Shown: positions 6,519 to 36,905 of the stretch, in pieces | Layout: each line of letters begins with the position of its first letter | How positions within the stretch are numbered: the stretch's first letter is position 1 | DNA from: Podarcis muralis | Lineage: Eukaryota | Assembly: GCF_964188315.1 (NCBI RefSeq) | Contig: NC_135655.1 | Span: forward strand, 78,058,001-78,122,000 | DNA: 64,000 nucleotides | Direction of reading: 5' to 3' | Notes under the pieces: model-generated | Told to the model about the DNA's origin: nothing | Databases searched by the model: none | Seen by the model: only the letters and a program-made list of their open reading frames with translations | Program-made: the position numbers and the translations under genes

Positions 6519-6683
6519 TAAATGTGAACTGGATCACATTTTTTCCTCATTCCTAGTGCCAAGAAATGAAATTTCTCAGAGCTCTTTGTGAGTTCTTAAT
6601 GCACACGCACACATAGAGAGAGCTATATTGTGGTCCACAGACCCAGAATAGCTTGGTGCACCGTGTACTTGTCTCTGCATAAG

Positions 6684-7324
6684 TGTGATGGCCTGGGATT
6701 CCGATTCGGAGGATGAAACAGAGGAATCCCAGCCTGCACAGGAGTCCCCGCCTCCAGGGCCGGCTGAACTGGGGCAAGGCCTAGATGCTGAAGAGCCTGC
6801 ACCTGTGGCAGTGCATCAGGAGCTGGCCCCAGGTGAAGCCCTTCTGGCCCCAGAGAGGCTTGACGACTCAGTGGCCACAGGTGAGCCTCCTCCAGGGCCC
6901 AGTAACCCTTCGGCCTCTCCTGATCTGCAGAGGCTTAGAGCAGAGAGGCGAAGGGAACTGGTTGCCCCCAGGAGGAGTGCTCGCCTTAAGGCCAGAGGAG
7001 GCGGGGCTCCTGGGGGCTGGGACCGCCCATGGCCTTAGAAGAGGATAAAAGCCCAGTCAGCCCGGCCCCAGGTTGCGGGAGCAACGTCGTTGTTGGCTTC
7101 GGACCTTCCTGTGTTCCTGATCCCTGCTCGGTCTCCTGTTCCTGACTATCCGGTACTCCTGTTCCCTGCTCGGCTTCCTGTTCCCGACCATCCGGTGTTC
7201 CTGTTCCCTGCACAGCCTCCTGTTCCAGCGTTCCTGTTCCCCGCCCGGCTCTCTGCCTCGGACCTCACCCCTCTTCGTGTGGACTCTGCTACACCCAAGG
7301 TACCTTACCCCCGGGACCAGCACA
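6684..7324 (+). repeat. 5' LTR (641 bp)
   Basis: Starts TGTGATGG, ends CCAGCACA (7/8 terminal inverted match); reads identical to 11689-12329; TATA-like GATAAAA at 7044-7050. Confidence 0.97.
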
Positions 7325-7326
7325 GT

Positions 7327-7336
7327 TTGCTCCCGC
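7327..7336 (+). other. Self-priming primer-binding site (TTGCTCCCGC)
   Basis: Exact reverse complement of LTR 7075-7084 (GCGGGAGCAA), which lies 31 nt downstream of the start of the TATA-like box. Confidence 0.75.
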
Positions 7337-7387
7337 CACACCCGCACTCCCCCTTCGTAGGGGTGCGTTCGGGAAGAGCCAGAGGCC

Positions 7388-10300
7388 ATGGCTGACCAGG
7401 CGGCTGCACTGGTGGCTTTGGCCCAGGAGAACCAGGCCTTGACTCACACCGTGCAGCAGCTCAGTGACGCGGTTGTGGCACTTCAGCAACGCTTGGAAGC
7501 CCTACCGGCTCCTGGGGCCGACGCCCCGGCTCCGGGCAAGTACCCAGTGGCTTTGCCTGAGAAATTTGATGGAGCCCCGGCCAGCTTTCCCATGTTCCTG
7601 GCCCAGGCCAAGCTGTATATTCAGGGGCGAGCCCGGAACTTTCCTGACGACCGCACCAAGGTGCACTTTTTGATTAGTTTGTTAAAGGACCAGGCGGCCA
7701 AGTGGGCGTTGCCGCTACTCAGGCAAGACTCCCCCTTGCTGGCAGACTATACGGGGTTTTGCAATCGTTTGGAGGCCGCGTTCGGCAACCCCCAGAAAGG
7801 GAGTCAAGCCAACCGGGCGATTCGGCGTTTGAAACAAGGCAAGTCCACGGTGGCCGCATATACCACGGAGTTTCGGCTGTTGGCACAGGACTTGACCTGG
7901 AATGACTCGGCACTGCGGGACCAGTATCTCGAAGGGCTTTCGGACGAGGTACTGGACCAGTTGGCCACAATGGAACGTCCCACCACGCTGGACACTCTCA
8001 TTCAACGGAGTCTACAAATAGACGACCGGTTGGAGGATCGTCGTCAGGCCCGGGGTCGCCGACACTTCCAGTTCACGGCACCAGCTTTTTCCAGCAGCCC
8101 CACGGTCACGACTGATTTAACGGAGGAGCCTATGCAGCTGGGGGCAGTGCGGCCACGCCTTTCCCCCGCAGAGAAGGCGCGGCGTCGGGAGGGAAATCTC
8201 TGTCTTTACTGTGGCGGAAGTGGACACTTCGCTCGGTTCTGCCCTGAGAAACCGCCAACCCCAGTAGCTGATGGCCCTAGCTACCGGGGGTCCCAAACCG
8301 CACAGAATGGGCCCGCACCAATGGACTTGCAACATCTTATGGTTTCGGTACGTTTATACCCTCCAGGTGGGCCCTGGATCCTCACCCATGCTTTGGTAGA
8401 TTCAGGAGCAACCCGCTCCTATATGGACGCTGCTTTTGCCGCCCATCATCAGGTGCCACTTCGGAACAAGCCAGTACCGGTCCAGGTGGAAGCGATTGAC
8501 GGTCGACTTCTGCGTTCAGGTGCCGTTACTCAGGAGACCCAGCCCCTGGTCCTGTGTCTCCAGCAGCACCGGGAGTTGCGAACTTTGGACATTGCCTCTA
8601 TGCCCCGCTTCCCCCTGGTGCTCGGGATGGACTGGCTGGAAGCCCACAACGTTCAGATTGACTGGGTCAAACGGACCGTGCACTTCCCAGACCCATGTTC
8701 CCATGCTCAATCCGGAACGCTGGCGGCCGCGCCCTCAGAGGAGGCAGCACCCACGCTCCCAGCCGTGTACCAGGACTACCAGGACGTGTTCGAGGAACGG
8801 GGGGCAGACCAGCTGCCGCCGCATCGGCCTTTTGACTGCGGCATAGACCTCCAACCCGGAGCGCCTTTACCAGTGAGTCGCTTATATTCTCTAACAGAGC
8901 CAGAGCGCGAGGCTTTGCAGGACTTCTTGCGCAAGAACCTGGAGCGTGGGTTCATTAGGCCTTCCACCTCGCCTACCGCGGCACCAGTGCTTTTCGTTAA
9001 GAAGAAATGTGGGGAACTCCGCCCTTGCCATGATTACCGAGCCCTGAACAAAATTACCGTCCCAGACCGGTACCCCTTGCCCCTTATCTCGGAGCTGCTG
9101 GAGCGGGTGCAAGGGGCACAGGTGTTCACCAAGCTGGACCTCCGGGGGGCCTACAACTTGATTCGGATCCGAGCCGGGGATGAGTGGAAGACAGCGTTTG
9201 GGACCCGGTACGGGCAGTTCGAATATTTGGTTATGCCTTTCGGTTTGTGCAACGCGCCTGCTGTGTTCCAACGCTACATCAACCACGTGTTTCAGGACTT
9301 GTTAGACAAGTACGTGGTGGTGTATTTGGATGACATACTGATTTACTCCCGTGACCCGGCTCGCCATGAGGGACATGTCCGGACCGTGCTGCAGCGCTTG
9401 CGTGAGCACCGTTTGTACGCAAAGCTCAGCAAGTGCGAGTTCCATCAGCGGTCTGTGGACTTCCTTGGTCACCGGCTCTCTCCAGATGGGGTGCAAATGG
9501 ACCCGGGGAAGGTGACAGCGGTTCGAGAATGGGCGGCACCCCGGAACCGCAAGGACCTACAGCGTTTCCTGGGGTTCGCCAATTACTACCGGACCTTCAT
9601 CGCTGATTATGCTCATCGCACCACCCCGTTGACCCGGCTACTGCGCCCAAAGACGCCGTTTTCCTGGGACAAGGAGGCAGAGGAGGCGTTTCAGGGGTTG
9701 AAGGCCTGTTTCCAGAGGGCACCAATCTTACAACATCCTGACCCCTCTCGACCCTTTGTGGTGGAGACCGACGCCTCCAGTACGGCTCTCGGTGCCGTCT
9801 TGTCTCAACAGATTGGTCCTGAAGCGCCACTCTTACCCTGTGCCTTCTATTCCCGCCAGCTCCTACCAGCGGAGCGTAACTATACTGTGTGGGAGCGGGA
9901 ACTACTGGCCATCAAGGTAGCCTTTGAGGTCTGGCGCCACCATCTTGAGGGGGCACGACATCCGGTGGAGGTGAGAACCGACCACCGGAACCTGGAGTAC
10001 CTCCAGACCACCCGCAAGCTGAACCAAAGACAGATCCGGTGGGCGTTGTTCTTTTCCCGGTTCCAGTTCCGGATCCGCTACATCCCTAGCTCTCAGAATC
10101 AGAAGGCGGATGCCCTGTCCCGGAAACCTGAAGACAACGCAGACACGGTACAGCAAGCAGAACCCACCACGATCCTACCTCCGGCTGCATTCCTGGCCAC
10201 CCAGGAGGCGCAGCCACTGCAGGTTCGGGTGCGGGAACAGCAGCGGGTCGACGCTTGGGCCCAGGAACGACTCCGGGAGCTGGCTGAAGGGTCCAGCCCA

Positions 10301-12043
10301 CAGTATCCAGGGCTGGTCCTGCATCAGGGCCTTCTGCTGCACCACGGTCGTCTGTACATCCCGCCAGGGCCACTACGGCTGGAGGTTCTCCGGATGGCCC
10401 ATGATGCCCCAGCAGCGGGGCACTTTGGACGGTATCGGACCACCCATCTGGTCAGTCGTGAGTTTTGGTGGCCCCGCCTGAAGGCTGACGTGGCTCGCTA
10501 CGTTGCTGGTTGTGATGTCTGCCGGCGCGCCAAGGGACCTACCGGGCGACCCCCCGGCCTACTTCAGCCATTGCCAGTTCCACCGCGCCCTTGGCACACG
10601 GTTTCGTTGGACTTTGTAGTGGACTTACCCTCGTCTCGTGGCTGTACCTGCCTTCTGGTTTTCTCCGACCATTTCACCAAGATGGTGCACTGCGCTCCCT
10701 GTCCATCTGTACCCACAGCCAAGGAAACTGCTCAGCTGTACCTTCAGCATGTCTTCCGCCTGCATGGCCTACCTGAGCGCGTGGTGTCCGACCGGGGCGT
10801 TCAGTTCACATCCCGGTTCTGGCGAGCATTACACCAGACCCTCGGGACAGAGGTCTGCCTCTCGTCAGCCTACCACCCACAAACCGATGGCCAGACGGAA
10901 CGGGCGAACGCGGTGCTGGAGCAGTACCTCCGGTGTTACTGCAGCTACCAGCAGGATGACTGGGTCGACCACCTGGCATTGGCGGAGTTCGCCTATAACA
11001 ACGCGGTGAATGCGTCCACCCAGCAGACCCCGTTCCAGGCCAGTTATGGTTATCATCCACGGCTGTTTCCAGAGGTGCTGCCGGCATCCGCGGTCCCGGC
11101 GGTGACGGAGTGGCTTCAAGAGCTCCAGTCCCAGCAACAGCTTTTGGTGGAGCAACTGCACCAGGCCAAGGAAGCGTACAAAGCCCAGGCCGACCGCCAC
11201 CGCCAGGTGGGGCCGGAACTTCGCGTCGGTGACCTGGTTTGGCTCTCCACTCGCCACCTCCACCCCTCTCGACCTTCGCGGAAGTTGGACGCCCGCTTCA
11301 CCGGCCCGTTCCCTATCGTAGACCAAGTCTCTCCTGTGGCATTCCGTCTCCGGTTACCCGCAACCCTGAAGGTTCACCCGGTCTTCCACAGGTCCCTTTT
11401 GAGTCCGGTGGCCCCACCTGACGAGTTCCACCCGAACCGTCCCCGACCGCAGCCAGTGTTGGTTCGGGGAGAGCCTGAGTACGAGGTGGAACGCATCCTG
11501 GACTCCCGATACCGCAGGGGAAAGCTGCAGTATCTCATTGACTGGAAGGGGTACGGACCGGAGGACCGTTCCTGGGAACCAGCGGCCAACATCCACGCAC
11601 CTGCCTGCCTCCGAGAGTTCCATGCGACGTACCCCAGCAAGCCGGGTCCGGACCCTCGGTTGAGGGGGGGGCCTGGGAGGGGGGATGGTGTGATGGCCTG
11701 GGATTCCGATTCGGAGGATGAAACAGAGGAATCCCAGCCTGCACAGGAGTCCCCGCCTCCAGGGCCGGCTGAACTGGGGCAAGGCCTAGATGCTGAAGAG
11801 CCTGCACCTGTGGCAGTGCATCAGGAGCTGGCCCCAGGTGAAGCCCTTCTGGCCCCAGAGAGGCTTGACGACTCAGTGGCCACAGGTGAGCCTCCTCCAG
11901 GGCCCAGTAACCCTTCGGCCTCTCCTGATCTGCAGAGGCTTAGAGCAGAGAGGCGAAGGGAACTGGTTGCCCCCAGGAGGAGTGCTCGCCTTAAGGCCAG
12001 AGGAGGCGGGGCTCCTGGGGGCTGGGACCGCCCATGGCCTTAG
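7388..12043 (+). CDS. Single-ORF Gag-Pol polyprotein (1551 aa): PEG10/RTL-like capsid, CCHC knuckle, aspartic protease, RT, RNase H, integrase, chromodomain, U3-encoded tail
   Basis: LPEKFDG capsid motif; CLYCGGSGHFARFC; ALVDSGAT; MPFGLCNAP...YLDD; VVETDAS; HDAPAAGH...CDVC zinc finger; DFVVDLP/SDRG/TERAN core; GPF motif; EYEVERILDSR..YLIDWKGY..SWEP chromodomain; GCCATGG start is the first ATG after the LTR promoter. Confidence 0.97.
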   Translation: MADQAAALVALAQENQALTHTVQQLSDAVVALQQRLEALPAPGADAPAPGKYPVALPEKFDGAPASFPMFLAQAKLYIQGRARNFPDDRTKVHFLISLLKDQAAKWALPLLRQDSPLLADYTGFCNRLEAAFGNPQKGSQANRAIRRLKQGKSTVAAYTTEFRLLAQDLTWNDSALRDQYLEGLSDEVLDQLATMERPTTLDTLIQRSLQIDDRLEDRRQARGRRHFQFTAPAFSSSPTVTTDLTEEPMQLGAVRPRLSPAEKARRREGNLCLYCGGSGHFARFCPEKPPTPVADGPSYRGSQTAQNGPAPMDLQHLMVSVRLYPPGGPWILTHALVDSGATRSYMDAAFAAHHQVPLRNKPVPVQVEAIDGRLLRSGAVTQETQPLVLCLQQHRELRTLDIASMPRFPLVLGMDWLEAHNVQIDWVKRTVHFPDPCSHAQSGTLAAAPSEEAAPTLPAVYQDYQDVFEERGADQLPPHRPFDCGIDLQPGAPLPVSRLYSLTEPEREALQDFLRKNLERGFIRPSTSPTAAPVLFVKKKCGELRPCHDYRALNKITVPDRYPLPLISELLERVQGAQVFTKLDLRGAYNLIRIRAGDEWKTAFGTRYGQFEYLVMPFGLCNAPAVFQRYINHVFQDLLDKYVVVYLDDILIYSRDPARHEGHVRTVLQRLREHRLYAKLSKCEFHQRSVDFLGHRLSPDGVQMDPGKVTAVREWAAPRNRKDLQRFLGFANYYRTFIADYAHRTTPLTRLLRPKTPFSWDKEAEEAFQGLKACFQRAPILQHPDPSRPFVVETDASSTALGAVLSQQIGPEAPLLPCAFYSRQLLPAERNYTVWERELLAIKVAFEVWRHHLEGARHPVEVRTDHRNLEYLQTTRKLNQRQIRWALFFSRFQFRIRYIPSSQNQKADALSRKPEDNADTVQQAEPTTILPPAAFLATQEAQPLQVRVREQQRVDAWAQERLRELAEGSSPQYPGLVLHQGLLLHHGRLYIPPGPLRLEVLRMAHDAPAAGHFGRYRTTHLVSREFWWPRLKADVARYVAGCDVCRRAKGPTGRPPGLLQPLPVPPRPWHTVSLDFVVDLPSSRGCTCLLVFSDHFTKMVHCAPCPSVPTAKETAQLYLQHVFRLHGLPERVVSDRGVQFTSRFWRALHQTLGTEVCLSSAYHPQTDGQTERANAVLEQYLRCYCSYQQDDWVDHLALAEFAYNNAVNASTQQTPFQASYGYHPRLFPEVLPASAVPAVTEWLQELQSQQQLLVEQLHQAKEAYKAQADRHRQVGPELRVGDLVWLSTRHLHPSRPSRKLDARFTGPFPIVDQVSPVAFRLRLPATLKVHPVFHRSLLSPVAPPDEFHPNRPRPQPVLVRGEPEYEVERILDSRYRRGKLQYLIDWKGYGPEDRSWEPAANIHAPACLREFHATYPSKPGPDPRLRGGPGRGDGVMAWDSDSEDETEESQPAQESPPPGPAELGQGLDAEEPAPVAVHQELAPGEALLAPERLDDSVATGEPPPGPSNPSASPDLQRLRAERRRELVAPRRSARLKARGGGAPGGWDRPWP

Positions 12044-12329
12044 AAGAGGATAAAAGCCCAGTCAGCCCGGCCCCAGGTTGCGGGAGCAACGTCGTTGTTG
12101 GCTTCGGACCTTCCTGTGTTCCTGATCCCTGCTCGGTCTCCTGTTCCTGACTATCCGGTACTCCTGTTCCCTGCTCGGCTTCCTGTTCCCGACCATCCGG
12201 TGTTCCTGTTCCCTGCACAGCCTCCTGTTCCAGCGTTCCTGTTCCCCGCCCGGCTCTCTGCCTCGGACCTCACCCCTCTTCGTGTGGACTCTGCTACACC
12301 CAAGGTACCTTACCCCCGGGACCAGCACA
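11689..12329 (+). repeat. 3' LTR (641 bp)
   Basis: Direct repeat of 6684-7324, immediately preceded by the polypurine tract. Confidence 0.97.
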
Positions 12330-12547
12330 GTAAGGATATAAAGACACTTAACTCTTCTCACCCCCCAACACTGTTGATAGAGCAGCAACTGCAAGGTAAG
12401 CATATAAAGGGGGGGGGACACACGATAGGATTCTACTCTGTCATTATTATCTCACTGTACTCTTGAGCCAAACTGAGAAGTGACGTACTACCCATCATTA
12501 ACACTAACCAGAAAAATCTATTCAATGCAAAGAGAGAGTTTACTTAC

Positions 12548-13471: not shown

Positions 13472-13906
<435 letters not shown>

Positions 13907-33222: not shown

Positions 33223-35219
33223 TATGTATATTGAAATAGACATTTGAAAATCTGTATAGGTTAGTTGTTAGTTGTCCTCACAGAGGTACAATCCACAAGG
33301 TACCCTGGGAAGAGAAATGGATGGTTAAACCACTCTCTCTGTGAGGGGAATAGGGGTCTCTTAACAACTTTCAGGATCCCTAACACACTGTAGGATTCCC
33401 AAGATTCTTTGTGCTGTCAATGTAAGGTGAACATGTGGCCTTAGTTGTTTTGTGATGCTTCGCCAATGCTATCACATTATCACTATCCAGAGGGGCTATA
33501 GGCTTTTTATCACACATATGGGTGGTCATATAAGATACCGCTTTCAAATACTGTTTGCACCTGCAGATGTTTTGGAGTGGCATCATTTCCAATCAGTGCA
33601 TATTCTGTAAGTTCCTGCTGAAACCTCATAAATTTTCATACCCCAAATGTTCATGGAGAGGTGGGGAGGGGTTGTCCTGCTTTTGTTGTGCTATAGCCAC
33701 CCACCTCTGGGCAAACGTAGGATTTAGTGGACATTGGGCTACTGAAGCAGCAGTAGCAGTGCATCTTCTTCCCAGGTGTGATTCTTCTTTAAAACTGCTT
33801 GGTGAATATATTTTGAATTAAAAGGCCCTTTTCTGCAACTTTAACAGCCTGGGAACTAAAGTTGTTTTACAGTTATTGTGAAATGCCTTCGAGGAAATTC
33901 TGTTTTTGAAAGGCAGGTCAAAAGTCCCTGAAAAATTAATCAGTCAGTGTTCAGTGTATTGAACAACAAACTAAAATTGAAACTATAGCATTATTTTCCA
34001 GGGTAATATTATACTATTTTTCATGTTTAAACAGTATCTTTAGTTTTTTATCATGACTAAAATGAAATATTTTTATGTAAAAGAAGGCATTTAAAGGGGG
34101 AGGGATCTATCAGACAACATGAGGAATGTAATTAATATTTTGGAAAAGTTACAAGTGAACATTAACACAAAAGTTGTTTTGATATTTGTAGACGCGGAGA
34201 AAGCCTTTGACAACATTTCTTGGAGCTTTATGAAGAAAAATCTTCAGGGGATGGGGGTTGGACAAAACTTTGAGAATGGTATAAGTGCGATTTATTTTGA
34301 ACAAAAGGCTAAACTGATAGTTAATAATATAGTGACAGAAGAATTTAAAATTGAGAAAGGGACACGACAAGGCTGCCCAATTTCCCCACTGCTTTTTATT
34401 TTGGTCCTGGAGGTTTTGCTAAATATGATCAGAAGGGACCAGTGGATTCAAGGTATTCAGGTCGGAGCTAAACAATACAAACTTAAAGCCTTTGCAGATG
34501 ATCTTGTACTGACGTTACAGGAGCCAGTATCTAGTACTAATAGGGTACTAGAATTACCGTAATTTTCGCTCCAAAACACGCACTTTTTTGCTCCTAGAAA
34601 GTAAGGGAAAATGCCTGTGCGTGTTAAGGAGCGAATGCACTCGACTGGATCCATGGCTGCCGTCAGTCAAGCAAAGCAAGCTTTGCTTGCTTTACAGCCA
34701 GGAGGAGGGGGAGGAGCCGAGGAGGGAAGGAGGGAAGGAGAGCCATGGCAGCAAAGCGGGCAGCAGCCGCTTACACGCGAGGAGGGACAGACGGGAGCCA
34801 TAGGGAGCCGGAAAAGCGCCGCGTAGCCAGCAACAGCTGCTGCAGCCTCAGCTAGCAACGCTCTCTAAACGGAGCAATGAGGCTGCAGAGGGACGGCAGG
34901 GCACAGGAGGGCTCTGAGCCACGAGCGCAGTGAAAACCAGTAAAAAAGTTTTTAAAAAGGCTGCTGGGGACAGGAGGGCACGGGATGAGGGAGAGAGGGA
35001 AATTACGATTCTCCCAGCGTCTCAGCTGATCCGCTGAGCAGGACTTGGGTTGCAGGGGATTCGCCGTTAGCTGCGTAAAGCAGCAAAGAGGGAGAGAAGG
35101 AGCAAAGTGGGAGAGGAAAGGAGCTGCTTACACTGCTGTAAGTGGCTGCTGTCTGGTTGGCTCCTTTAAAGCAACAGTGCTCTTTCCCTCCCCCCTCCCC
35201 TCTCAGCTCGCCGAAAAGC

Positions 35220-36582
35220 TCCTTTTCCACACACCCCACTCGAGCTCCTTCTCCCCTTAAATCCCTCTCCTGCATCATTAGCCACATCCTTTTCCACACA
35301 CCCCACGCGTGTTCCTTCTCCCCTTAAATCCCTCTCCTGCATCATTAGCCACATCCTTCTCCACCCACCCCACGCGTGTTCCTTCTCCCCTTTAACCGCT
35401 CGCCTGCATCATTAGCCACATCCTTCTCTACACACCCCACGCGTGTTCCTTCTCCCCTTAAATCCCTCTCCTGCATCATTAGCCACATCCTTCTCTACAC
35501 ACCCCACGCGTGTTCCTTCTCCCCTTAAATCCCTCTCCTGCATTATTAGCCACATCCTTCTCCACCCACCCCACGCGTGTTCCTTCTCCCCTTTAACCGC
35601 TCGCCTGCATCATTAGCCACATCCTTCTCTACACACCCCACGCGTGTTCCTTCTCCCCTTAAATCCCTCTCCTGCATCATTAGCCACATCCTTCTCTACA
35701 CACCCCATGCATGTTCCTTCTCCCCTTAAATCCCTCTCCTGCATCATTAGCCACATCCTTCTCTACACACCCCACGCGTGTTCCTTCTCCCCTTAAATCC
35801 CTCTCCTGCATCATTAGCCACATCCTTCTCTACACACCCCATGCATGTTCCTTCTCCCCTTAAATCCCTCTCCTGCATCATTAGCCACATCCTTCTCCAC
35901 CCACCCCACGCGTGTTCCTTCTCCCCTTTAACCGCTCGCCTGCATCATTAGCCACATCCTTCTCTACACACCCCACGCGTGTTCCTTCTCCCCTTAAATC
36001 CCTCTCCTGCATCATTAGCCACATCCTTCTCTACACACCCCACGCGTGTTCCTTCTCCCCTTAAATCCCTCTCCTGCATTATTAGCCACATCCTTCTCCA
36101 CCCACCCCACGCGTGTTCCTTCTCCCCTTTAACCGCTCGCCTGCATCATTAGCCACATCCTTCTCTACACACCCCACGCGTGTTCCTTCTCCCCTTAAAT
36201 CCCTCTCCTGCATCATTAGCCACATCCTTCTCTACACACCCCATGCATGTTCCTTCTCCCCTTAAATCCCTCTCCTGCATCATTAGCCACATCCTTCTCT
36301 ACACACCCCACGCGTGTTCCTTCTCCCCTTAAATCCCTCTCCTGCATCATTAGCCACATCCTTCTCTACACACCCCATGCATGTTCCTTCTCCCCTTAAA
36401 TCCCTCTCCTGCATCATTAGCCACATCCTTCTCCACCCACCCCACGCGTGTTCCTTCTCCCCTTTAACCGCTCGCCTGCATCATTAGCCACATCCTTCTC
36501 TACACACCCCATGCATGTTCCTTCTCCCCTTAAATCCCTCTCCTGCATCATTAGCCACATCCTTCTCTACACACCCCACGCA
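35220..36582. repeat. 67-bp minisatellite, about 20 copies
   Basis: ATTAGCCACATCC recurs every 67 bp from 35277 to 36550 (20 occurrences). Confidence 0.97.
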
Positions 36583-36623
36583 TGCTCCGTGTCCCTTGAA
36601 TGCTTTTCCTTCCCTCCCTACTT

Positions 36624-36905
36624 AAAACGTGGTTACAAAGCACGGATCCACATGGATCCTCAGGATTTTTGCACTGGGTCACCCCAGGTTCACCATCAGA
36701 TCACATAAAATGTCCATGGCTACAGCCTGCACAAAAAAAAATCACGCACCCACTGTTTCATGGGGCTGCAACGGCGCAAAAACGTGGTTACAAAGCATGG
36801 ATCCACATGGATCCACAGGATTTTTGCATTGGGCTACCCCAAACTCACCGTCAGATCACGTTTGTGGCCACAGCATGAACCACAAAAATCATACATCCAC
36901 TGTTT
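36624..36905. repeat. Imperfect ~155-bp tandem duplication inside the MITE
   Basis: AAAACGTGGTTACAAAGCA(C/T)GGATCCACATGGATCC(T/A)CAGGATTTTTGCA occurs near 36624 and 36778. Confidence 0.8.

What the first reader, a model, noticed from the sequence alone, without database searches (positions are those of the whole stretch)
11689..12043. Gag-Pol ORF reads through the PPT and almost the whole U3: a dual-use promoter/coding LTR adding a ~117-aa tail after the chromodomain
Seen: there is no stop after the chromodomain. The frame crosses the polypurine tract and 355 nt of the 3' LTR, ending at TAG 12041-12043, 5 nt before the TATA-like GATAAAA. The tail (MAWDSDSEDETEESQPAQESPPPGP...RRSARLKARGG) has an acidic Ser-rich start, a Pro-rich middle and a basic end, plus its own ATG in good Kozak context (gtgATGg, 11693). 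Known: U3-overlapping coding occurs in retroviruses (HIV nef, MMTV sag). Inference: an open frame ending right at the core promoter suggests a selected accessory or targeting domain in this Sushi-like family.
Basis: partly seen in the sequence, partly recalled or inferred. Interest (0 to 1): 0.75.

Follow-up and report, generated by a model that had tools for sequence, protein, structure and literature searches.

The report
Retrotransposon integrase tail encoded in promoter
In a young lizard jumping gene, the integrase gene runs on through the element's own promoter repeat and adds a 117-residue tail that natural selection has preserved, and the tail likely helps the integrase grip chromatin, a design known from plant centromeric retrotransposons.

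Summary
A Tf1/Sushi-type chromovirus (6684-12329, identical LTRs) has one 1551-aa ORF that crosses the PPT and 355 nt of U3. One copy alone proves little: 3% of shuffles stay open. The copies show selection. The frame is open in four LTR subfamilies (117/120/130/143 codons) and ends at or just before GATAAA. U3 dN/dS is 0.22-0.60, while U3 dS equals integrase dS (0.19). 58 of 63 young 3' LTRs are in frame, and slips in a G tract upstream of the PPT are copy-specific. Several distant chromovirus families in this genome also read about 70-110 codons into their 3' LTR (dN/dS 0.05-0.48 in close pairs). The 'own ATG' lies in the LTR-end motif and is absent from most sister families, so a separate nef/sag-like product is unsupported. 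The conserved basic block holds RRSARL, the core of the HMGN nucleosome-binding motif. Best reading: a disordered integrase tail that likely tethers to chromatin; binding is untested. The closest precedent is the plant CRM 'CR motif' encoded in the 3' LTR.

The parts
6684..7324 (+). 5' LTR (641 bp, TG...CA), identical to the 3' LTR; it carries the same U3 frame upstream of the inferred start of transcription
7075..7084 (+). Inferred 5' end of the genomic RNA; complementary to the primer-binding site (self-priming, Tf1/Sushi type)
   Evidence: 10-nt complement; PMC6317226 passages
7327..7336 (+). Self-priming primer-binding site (not tRNA-like by inspection)
7388..12043 (+). Single fused Gag-PR-RT-RNaseH-IN-SH3-chromodomain-tail ORF, 1551 aa from the first Met
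11480..11623 (+). Chromodomain (PF00385, E 3e-15); the three cage aromatics Y/W/Y are present, i.e. type I by inspection
   Evidence: sequence; type definition in PMC3059260
11664..11671 (+). G8 tract in the coding linker; the site of copy-specific length slips that cut the tail off
11675..11685 (+). Polypurine tract, read as codons (G-R-G-D)
11689..12329 (+). 3' LTR; U3 inferred as 11689-12079
11690..12043 (+). LTR-encoded tail, 117 codons plus TAG: acidic start (constrained), Pro-rich length-variable linker (weakly constrained), basic block (constrained)
11924..11965 (+). Predicted helix, the only ordered part of the tail (block pLDDT 64-76 in an otherwise low-confidence model)
11975..11998 (+). 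RRSARLKA, an HMGN-like motif (HMGN core RRSARLSA); its RRSARL core is the commonest reading in subfamilies A-D
   Evidence: PMC12487698 passages
12049..12055 (+). TATA-like GATAAAA, 31 nt before the inferred start; its TAA is the tail's stop in subfamilies B, C and D
6679..6683 (+). Left target-site duplication (5 bp, one mismatch to the right copy at 12330-12334)
   Evidence: most other copies have perfect 5-bp TSDs

Best explanation
The U3 frame is a selectively maintained, in-frame C-terminal extension of this chromovirus Gag-Pol that likely stays attached to integrase and likely acts as a second chromatin contact, with its HMGN-like RRSARL motif predicted to dock on the nucleosome acidic patch (or serve as nuclear-import signal) beside the chromodomain. 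SHOWN: open frame, purifying selection concentrated in the acidic start and the basic block, in-frame length changes of the linker, retention of frame across a slippery G tract. INFERRED: transcription starts at about 7075, so U3 is in the RNA only at its 3' end and is translated as the end of Gag-Pol. The tail is mostly disordered, with one helix. The Pro-rich linker is a flexible tether. The chromodomain would read methylated H3 while the arginines of RRSARL engage H2A-H2B, holding the integration complex on nucleosomes. The acidic start may shield the basic block or contact histones. The U3 DNA thus serves as promoter in the 5' copy and as coding sequence in the 3' copy.
For: (1) Four LTR subfamilies keep the frame open with different lengths (117, 120, 130, 143 codons) to the same end point. 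(2) dN/dS from differences shared by two real copies per subfamily: A-B 0.40 (p 0.027), A-C 0.56 (p 0.041), B-C 0.61 (p 0.13); A-D 0.22 and B-D 0.31 (both p<1e-4). The other two sense frames give 1.04-3.4. (3) Plain DNA alignments show third-position excess: A-D 30/22/47 (p 0.003), C-D 21/23/44 (p 0.0009) (only 2 D copies entered). (4) A-B dS is 0.19 in U3 and 0.187 in integrase, so silent sites in U3 are not held back by promoter constraint; dN is 0.076 against 0.014. (5) Constraint is regional, A-D: basic block 0.14 (p 0.001), acidic start 0.23 (p 0.004); A-C linker 0.97. (6) 58 of 63 young 3' LTRs with a partner LTR are in frame. G-tract phase does not cluster on a tree of older copies (16 changes against 14.7 shuffled), so no tail-less lineage is seen to have spread. 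(7) Of 20 stretches of distant families, 10 unrearranged elements with a located LTR pair read 69-143 codons into the 3' LTR in the same register. dN/dS of the LTR-coded part is 0.05-0.48 in the nine least-diverged of 18 pairs. (8) Gene models from Rhineura, Vipera, Crotalus, Naja and Salvator show an acidic tail after the chromodomain, with a basic end in the first three. (9) RRSARL is read in 6/6 A, 36/39 B, 11/18 C and 15/27 D copies; many departures are CpG-type R>H/C. HMGN binds the acidic patch through RRSAR (PMC12487698). An unrelated chromovirus-like protein (P0064) also ends in LRRSARL.
Against: No protein-level or binding evidence was obtained. Constraint in this family's tail is far weaker than in integrase (0.40 against 0.07). 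Against the empirical neutral baseline from private mutations (100 nonsynonymous or stop: 40 synonymous), only A-D (p 0.008) and B-D (p 0.037) are significant; A-B (p 0.13) and A-C (p 0.34) are not. The pairwise comparisons share branches and are not independent. Only 12 of 30 older subfamily-B junctions are in frame (the query itself was a slipped copy). No full-length C or D element was found, so their fusion to integrase is inferred. The other tail-bearing families end in a different motif (L..LLCW[KR]), so RRSARL is not needed clade-wide. One family in the same genome stops before the PPT (L123, L136, L200). The motif has K/Q/R where HMGN has S. The tails in other species come from gene models, and their LTR location was not checked on DNA.
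Confidence: 0.6

Rival explanations
1. The tail is selected and attached to integrase, but works by charge and localisation rather than a specific acidic-patch anchor: a nuclear-import signal or DNA/RNA-binding basic end plus an acidic solubility or histone-chaperone-like segment.
For: An acidic-then-basic layout recurs in squamate families whose terminal motifs differ. The tail is predicted disordered. Sister families conserve R-rich clusters without RRSARL.
Against: The exact hexapeptide is kept over dS of about 1.4 with silent changes inside the block (dN/dS 0.14) while flanking residues vary. That suits a specific contact better than bulk charge.
Confidence: 0.22
2. The U3 ORF makes a separate accessory protein (nef/sag-like), from its own ATG on a subgenomic or read-through RNA, or released from Pol by the protease.
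For: ATG 11693 has a strong Kozak context and is kept in A-D. The N-terminal codons are constrained. Podarcis gene models begin at this ATG (P0049, P0057).
Against: The ATG lies in the LTR-end motif, which integrase recognition constrains (Sushi 5' motif TGTYANR; PMC3601003). Most sister families start TGTCAGG without ATG yet have selected tails. The frame with integrase is retained. No splice joint or start peak was seen in 4 RNA runs, though at only 0-4x depth inside the element.
Confidence: 0.12
3. Chance read-through of GC-rich promoter DNA; the apparent conservation reflects DNA-level promoter constraint.
For: 3% of shuffles are open. TATA supplies a stop in one of three frames. B-C dN/dS is not significant. 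18 of 30 old junctions are out of frame.
Against: Third-position excess. U3 dS equals integrase dS. At neutral divergence of dS 0.95-1.44, 11-17 stops would be expected (P of none 2e-5 to 5e-8; using only the 100 observed differences, P 0.04). Sister families give p of 1e-3 to 1e-5.
Confidence: 0.06

Closest known systems
Plant CRM group A centromeric retrotransposons (CR motif / CHDCR)
   Same: [quoted passage not shown] LTRs often start TGATG.
   Different: In CRM-A the CR motif replaces the chromodomain; here an intact type I chromodomain is kept and the tail is added. No CR-motif profile was tested, and the tail hits no Pfam family. This element is self-primed rather than tRNA-Met primed, lives in an animal, and its copies lie on all 20 large contigs with no centromere test done.
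Beet chromoviruses Bingo1-4 and Bingo7
   Same: Chromodomain upstream of the PPT and ORF extension into the LTR (PMC3605345 passages); the closest anatomy.
   Different: Type II chromodomain, plant host. The passages seen give no length, selection test or function for the extension.
Tf1/Sushi-group (V-clade) vertebrate chromoviruses, e.g. Sushi-ichi, Amn-san
   Same: Domain order, chromodomain, self-priming PBS. Fish and frog relatives also show codons continuing past a junction-like 'GG[TDG]V' site (LTR position inferred).
   Different: A long selected U3 tail was not found described for them in my searches. The window copy has gag and pol fused in one frame.
HMGN / tardigrade Dsup nucleosome-binding motif
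   Same: Core RRSARL in a disordered protein. HMGN2 RRSAR and Dsup RRSSR dock on the H2A-H2B acidic patch through arginine anchors (PMC12487698 passages).
   Different: Resemblance of 6-8 residues only (RRSARL-K/Q/R-A against RRSARLSA). No homology is claimed, the PDB search of the basic block found no HMGN hit, and binding is untested.
HIV nef, MMTV sag (U3-overlapping retroviral genes)
   Same: Coding sequence overlapping U3 (recalled, not looked up).
   Different: These are separate ORFs on spliced or internal-promoter RNAs (recalled). Here the frame is fused to integrase and no such RNA was seen.

Membership tests
Ty3/Gypsy chromovirus | Order Gag-PR-RT-RH-IN with C-terminal chromodomain | tested here: met
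   Pfam
Ty3/Gypsy chromovirus | TG...CA LTRs, PPT, short TSD | tested here: met
   (5-bp TSDs)
Tf1/Sushi group | Self-priming PBS complementary to the RNA 5' end | tested here: met
   10-nt complement 7327-7336 / 7075-7084; criterion from PMC6317226
Tf1/Sushi group | Type I chromodomain with three aromatic cage residues | tested here: met
   Y, W, Y read from the sequence; definition
Tf1/Sushi group | RT phylogeny groups with Sushi-ichi/Amn reference elements | not tested
   No named reference sequences were in hand; the tree used integrase C-terminal parts of search hits only
CRM group A (plant) | [quoted passage not shown] | tested here: met
CRM group A (plant) | CR motif in place of the chromodomain | tested here: not met
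   Canonical chromodomain present upstream of the PPT
CRM group A (plant) | tRNA-Met primer-binding site | tested here: not met
   Self-priming site instead
CRM group A (plant) | Centromeric accumulation | not tested
   Copies are spread over many contigs; centromere positions unknown
HMGN-like nucleosome-binding motif | RRSAR(L) core sequence | tested here: met
   motif from PMC12487698
HMGN-like nucleosome-binding motif | Binds the nucleosome acidic patch through an arginine anchor | not tested
nef/sag-type U3 accessory genes | Separate ORF expressed from a spliced or internal-promoter RNA | tested here: inconclusive
   ORF is fused to pol; no joints or start peaks, but depth 0-4x

The most novel reading that the evidence does not exclude
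A squamate chromovirus lineage turned its LTR promoter into a coding cassette for integrase targeting tails, and this family evolved an HMGN-type arginine anchor there. Its integrase would then read nucleosomes bivalently (chromodomain on methyl-H3, RRSARL on the acidic patch): an animal counterpart of the plant CR motif, with swappable U3-encoded tails setting each family's insertion niche.
Probability: 0.35. Interest if true: 0.78.

Novelty: new variant of a known kind. Interest (0 to 1): 0.55.

Why it matters
How LTR retrotransposons pick insertion sites is a long-standing question, and the passages I read leave the partner of the plant CR motif unidentified (PMC3059260). Here a recently active vertebrate family carries a short, selected, LTR-encoded tail with a motif whose nucleosome-binding mode is structurally known, which gives a direct peptide-level test. 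It also means that U3 in these elements evolves under protein constraint, that standard annotations stopping at the chromodomain or PPT miss a domain, and that a very large number of solo LTRs in wall-lizard genomes carry an ATG-led ORF that already turns up in host gene models.

Tried and rejected
AlphaFold of chromodomain plus tail with a 10-row alignment: mean pLDDT 51 and even the chromodomain failed, so only the tail helix is noted and no fold search was run. Pfam on the tail: 0 families. PDB sequence search of the basic block: one chance antibody hit. Pattern searches for full-length subfamily-C elements: pattern mis-specified, no better than control; 2 hits, no internal region; 0 hits. 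Run search: no RNA holder listed. Laying four 2026 RNA runs (6-12% of each read) gave thin coverage, almost all of one orientation in the two bulk runs, with no splice joints or start peaks in the coding region; too shallow to exclude a subgenomic RNA, and the runs' species was not matched to the window's. A sister family gave flat coverage and no splice. dN/dS among young copies: no power at 99% identity. The script stopped before the B-D 'end' region and all C-D regions. The antisense frame that shares third positions also gives 0.40-0.71; it mirrors the sense frame and contains a stop, so it was rejected as a gene. 'Ends at the promoter' was rejected as independent evidence because the TATA-like box supplies the stop. 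Literature searches that found no description of this tail in vertebrates. The library lacks most subscription papers and Repbase reports, and no supplements were read, so absence from print is not established.

Full report
THE ELEMENT. The window holds a 5,646-bp LTR retrotransposon at 6684-12329 with identical 641-bp LTRs and a 5-bp target duplication with one mismatch. One frame runs from 7361 to TAG 12041-12043; the first Met is at 7388, giving 1551 aa. Pfam finds Gag, zinc knuckle, protease, RT, RNase H, integrase, a Tf2-like SH3 and a chromodomain at 11480-11623, and nothing in the tail. The primer-binding site (7327-7336) is complementary to 7075-7084 in the 5' LTR, 31 nt after GATAAAA. 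This is the self-priming arrangement of the Tf1/Sushi group (PMC6317226, passages) and places the start of transcription at about 7075, so U3 is about 391 nt. A Podarcis muralis protein is 98% identical over the C-terminal 201 residues, so the host is likely a wall lizard. The element lies antisense and downstream of the first coding exon of a CPT1A-like gene.

OBSERVATION. One copy alone is weak evidence, since about 3% of shuffles of this GC-rich stretch are open in that frame.

YOUNG COPIES (subfamily A). The top 30 of 41 DNA matches are 99-100% identical, and 29 read through to the same stop. That set is ranked by score and so favours ungapped copies. A search ranked on the tail protein alone is fairer: of 150 listed hits, 63 have a partner LTR upstream, and 58 of them are in frame with at least 300 codons. 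Four of the other five differ by one base in the G8 tract before the PPT; one was not checked. Assembly error in the homopolymer cannot be excluded.

OLDER SUBFAMILIES. I found B (87% identical in U3), C (about 70%) and D (through protein P0049). Their U3 frames are typically 120, 130 and 143 codons and stop at the TAA of GATAAA. In A and a few B copies a TAG lies three codons earlier, and the out-of-frame length difference between A and B lies after it. Among modal-length copies, 34 of 39 B and 17 of 18 C are open to the typical stop. Of 27 D copies, 16 end at 140-143 codons, 5 run on and 6 stop early. These sets are the best-scoring hits and therefore the least decayed.

SELECTION. To remove post-insertion mutation I counted only differences shared by two real copies on each side. 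dN/dS is 0.40 (A-B, p 0.027), 0.56 (A-C, p 0.041), 0.61 (B-C, p 0.13), 0.22 (A-D) and 0.31 (B-D, both p<1e-4); the other sense frames give 1.04-3.4. DNA-only alignments give third-position excess in A-B (p 0.023), A-D (0.003), B-D (0.008) and C-D (0.0009), but not clearly in A-C (0.065) or B-C (0.20) (2 D copies). Private mutations give a neutral baseline of 100 nonsynonymous or stop to 40 synonymous. Against it A-D (p 0.008) and B-D (p 0.037) are significant, and A-B and A-C are not. A-B dS is 0.19 in U3 and 0.187 in integrase, while dN/dS is 0.40 and 0.07: silent sites in U3 run at full speed, replacement sites are held back, less tightly than in the enzyme. Constraint sits in the acidic start and the basic block; the linker is close to neutral in A-C and B-C and changes length in whole codons. 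At the silent divergence between D and A or B, 11-17 stops would be expected under neutrality.

AGAINST. Only 12 of 30 older B junctions are in frame, through length variation of the G tract (the query was itself a slipped copy). The phase does not cluster on a tree of the upstream integrase sequence (16 changes against 14.7 for shuffled labels), and strongly supported sister copies differ in phase, so the slips look copy-specific rather than inherited. No full-length C or D element was found, so their fusion to integrase is inferred.

OTHER FAMILIES. A Pfam SH3 search of the genome gave distant chromoviruses whose chromodomains are 33-59% identical to the window's. [quoted passage not shown] One was rearranged, one stopped after 14 codons, one family stops 38 nt before the LTR, and seven were broken, mis-hit or lacked an LTR pair. 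The LTR-coded part has dN/dS 0.05-0.48 in the nine least-diverged of 18 pairs, for example 0.05 (p 1e-5) and 0.23 (p 7e-4); the other pairs are near or at saturation. These tails end in L..LLCW[KR], not RRSARL, and most of these LTRs begin TGTCAGG, with no ATG. A profile search of 1.84 billion proteins (best 150 of 4,637 hits read) found the tail itself only in Podarcis among the hits that could be named. It also found acidic tails after the chromodomain in Rhineura, Vipera, Crotalus, Naja and Salvator gene models, with basic ends in the first three. In a quick tree the window's family groups with the Rhineura and snake proteins (support 87) and loosely with the second lizard clade (82), while the tail-less family lies apart. 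These supports are modest.

HOW IT LIKELY WORKS. U3 is in the genomic RNA only at the 3' end, so the frame is translated as the end of Gag-Pol (inference). Four RNA runs show thin coverage through the coding region, with no splice or start peak (too shallow to exclude one). The tail is predicted disordered but for one helix just before RRSARL (low-confidence model). RRSARL is the core of the HMGN motif RRSARLSA, which docks on the nucleosome acidic patch through an arginine anchor, as does Dsup's PPRRSSRL (PMC12487698, passages). I therefore commit to a tether model: the chromodomain on methylated H3 and the tail's arginines on H2A-H2B, joined by a flexible linker. That the tail is a selected part of the protein I put at about 0.9, that it stays on integrase as a chromatin or nuclear tether at about 0.6, and that the acidic patch is the specific target at about 0.35.

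COMPARISON. Gag-pol read-through into the 3' LTR is known in plant chromoviruses. CRM group A encodes its CR targeting motif in the LTR (PMC3059260, passages), and beet Bingo1-4 and 7 extend past an upstream chromodomain into the LTR (PMC3605345, passages). This element works like those but is no CRM member: it keeps a type I chromodomain and is self-primed. A survey of LTR structure that models Sushi LTRs has no occurrence of 'ORF' or 'stop codon' in its main text and gives the 5' end motif as TGTYANR (PMC3601003, passages). Ten searches (listings only, apart from the five papers named here) found no account of such tails in vertebrate chromoviruses. The library is partial and no supplements were read. 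The scan's own notes held nothing on this sequence or genome, and two unchecked notes on LTR-associated ORFs in other genomes.

VERDICT. Real, selected, and shared by several squamate chromovirus families: a new variant of a known arrangement, with a concrete and testable candidate mechanism. Interest 0.55.

Noticed in passing
window 8240-8265; L202, L203, L214, L219: The young family has three gag/pol junction types. Among 150 listed LTR hits, 32 have a 1270-codon pol frame, 15 a 1560-codon fused frame (window type) and 2 a 1568-codon fused frame. The copies read show a GGGAAAC heptamer with a downstream hairpin and a gag stop in the first type, a junction 17 nt shorter without the heptamer in the second, and 7 nt longer in the third. 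Two separate gag-pol fusions are thus present in more than one copy. That GGGAAAC is a -1 frameshift signal as in PEG10 is recalled.
   Followed up: partly
L182-L199, L124-L149: A second chromovirus clade has a degenerate chromodomain, a long acidic 'F.GF'-repeat segment before the PPT, and a U3-encoded end with a conserved L..LLCW[KR] motif under strong purifying selection. One family has dozens of copies with a 1374-codon frame. It is arguably a stronger case than the window's family.
   Followed up: partly
L005, L033, L034, L070, L084, L087, L247: 7 of 118 LTR loci have further LTR sequence of the same superfamily within about 3.4 kb, some nested directly, against 0 of 60 control loci. L202 also sits inside another own-family LTR. 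This may mean self-targeting or shared heterochromatin preference; some small segments may be alignment splits.
   Followed up: partly
P0049/P0160, P0057: Podarcis gene models start at the solo-LTR ATG and continue into non-LTR sequence (LOC114604991; a G-protein-receptor-domain model in P. lilfordi): possible exaptation, or annotation artefact.
   Followed up: no
window 13757-13897 (-): First coding exon of a CPT1A-like gene (PF16484; PDB 2le3). The element lies downstream of it on the opposite strand, likely in an intron.
   Followed up: partly
G000:C20: This 30-Mb contig holds most of the older elements that retain internal sequence, as a non-recombining W chromosome would (inference).
   Followed up: no
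P0064: An unnamed ENA protein has chromodomain, junction-like 'GDTVM', acidic linker and terminal LRRSARLAAAH, and falls outside the squamate group in the tree (only 40% of columns filled): possible convergence on the same motif.
   Followed up: partly
P0095, P0099, P0111: Fish relatives carry repeated PRGRP (AT-hook-like, recalled) motifs after the chromodomain, a different chromatin/DNA-binding tail.
   Followed up: no
window 12107-12231: 42-bp tandem unit in R/U5 whose copy number varies among young copies, in contrast to the indel-free U3 coding part.
   Followed up: partly
window 35086-36725: 67-bp tandem array of about 24 units with strong C skew; unrelated to the finding.
   Followed up: no
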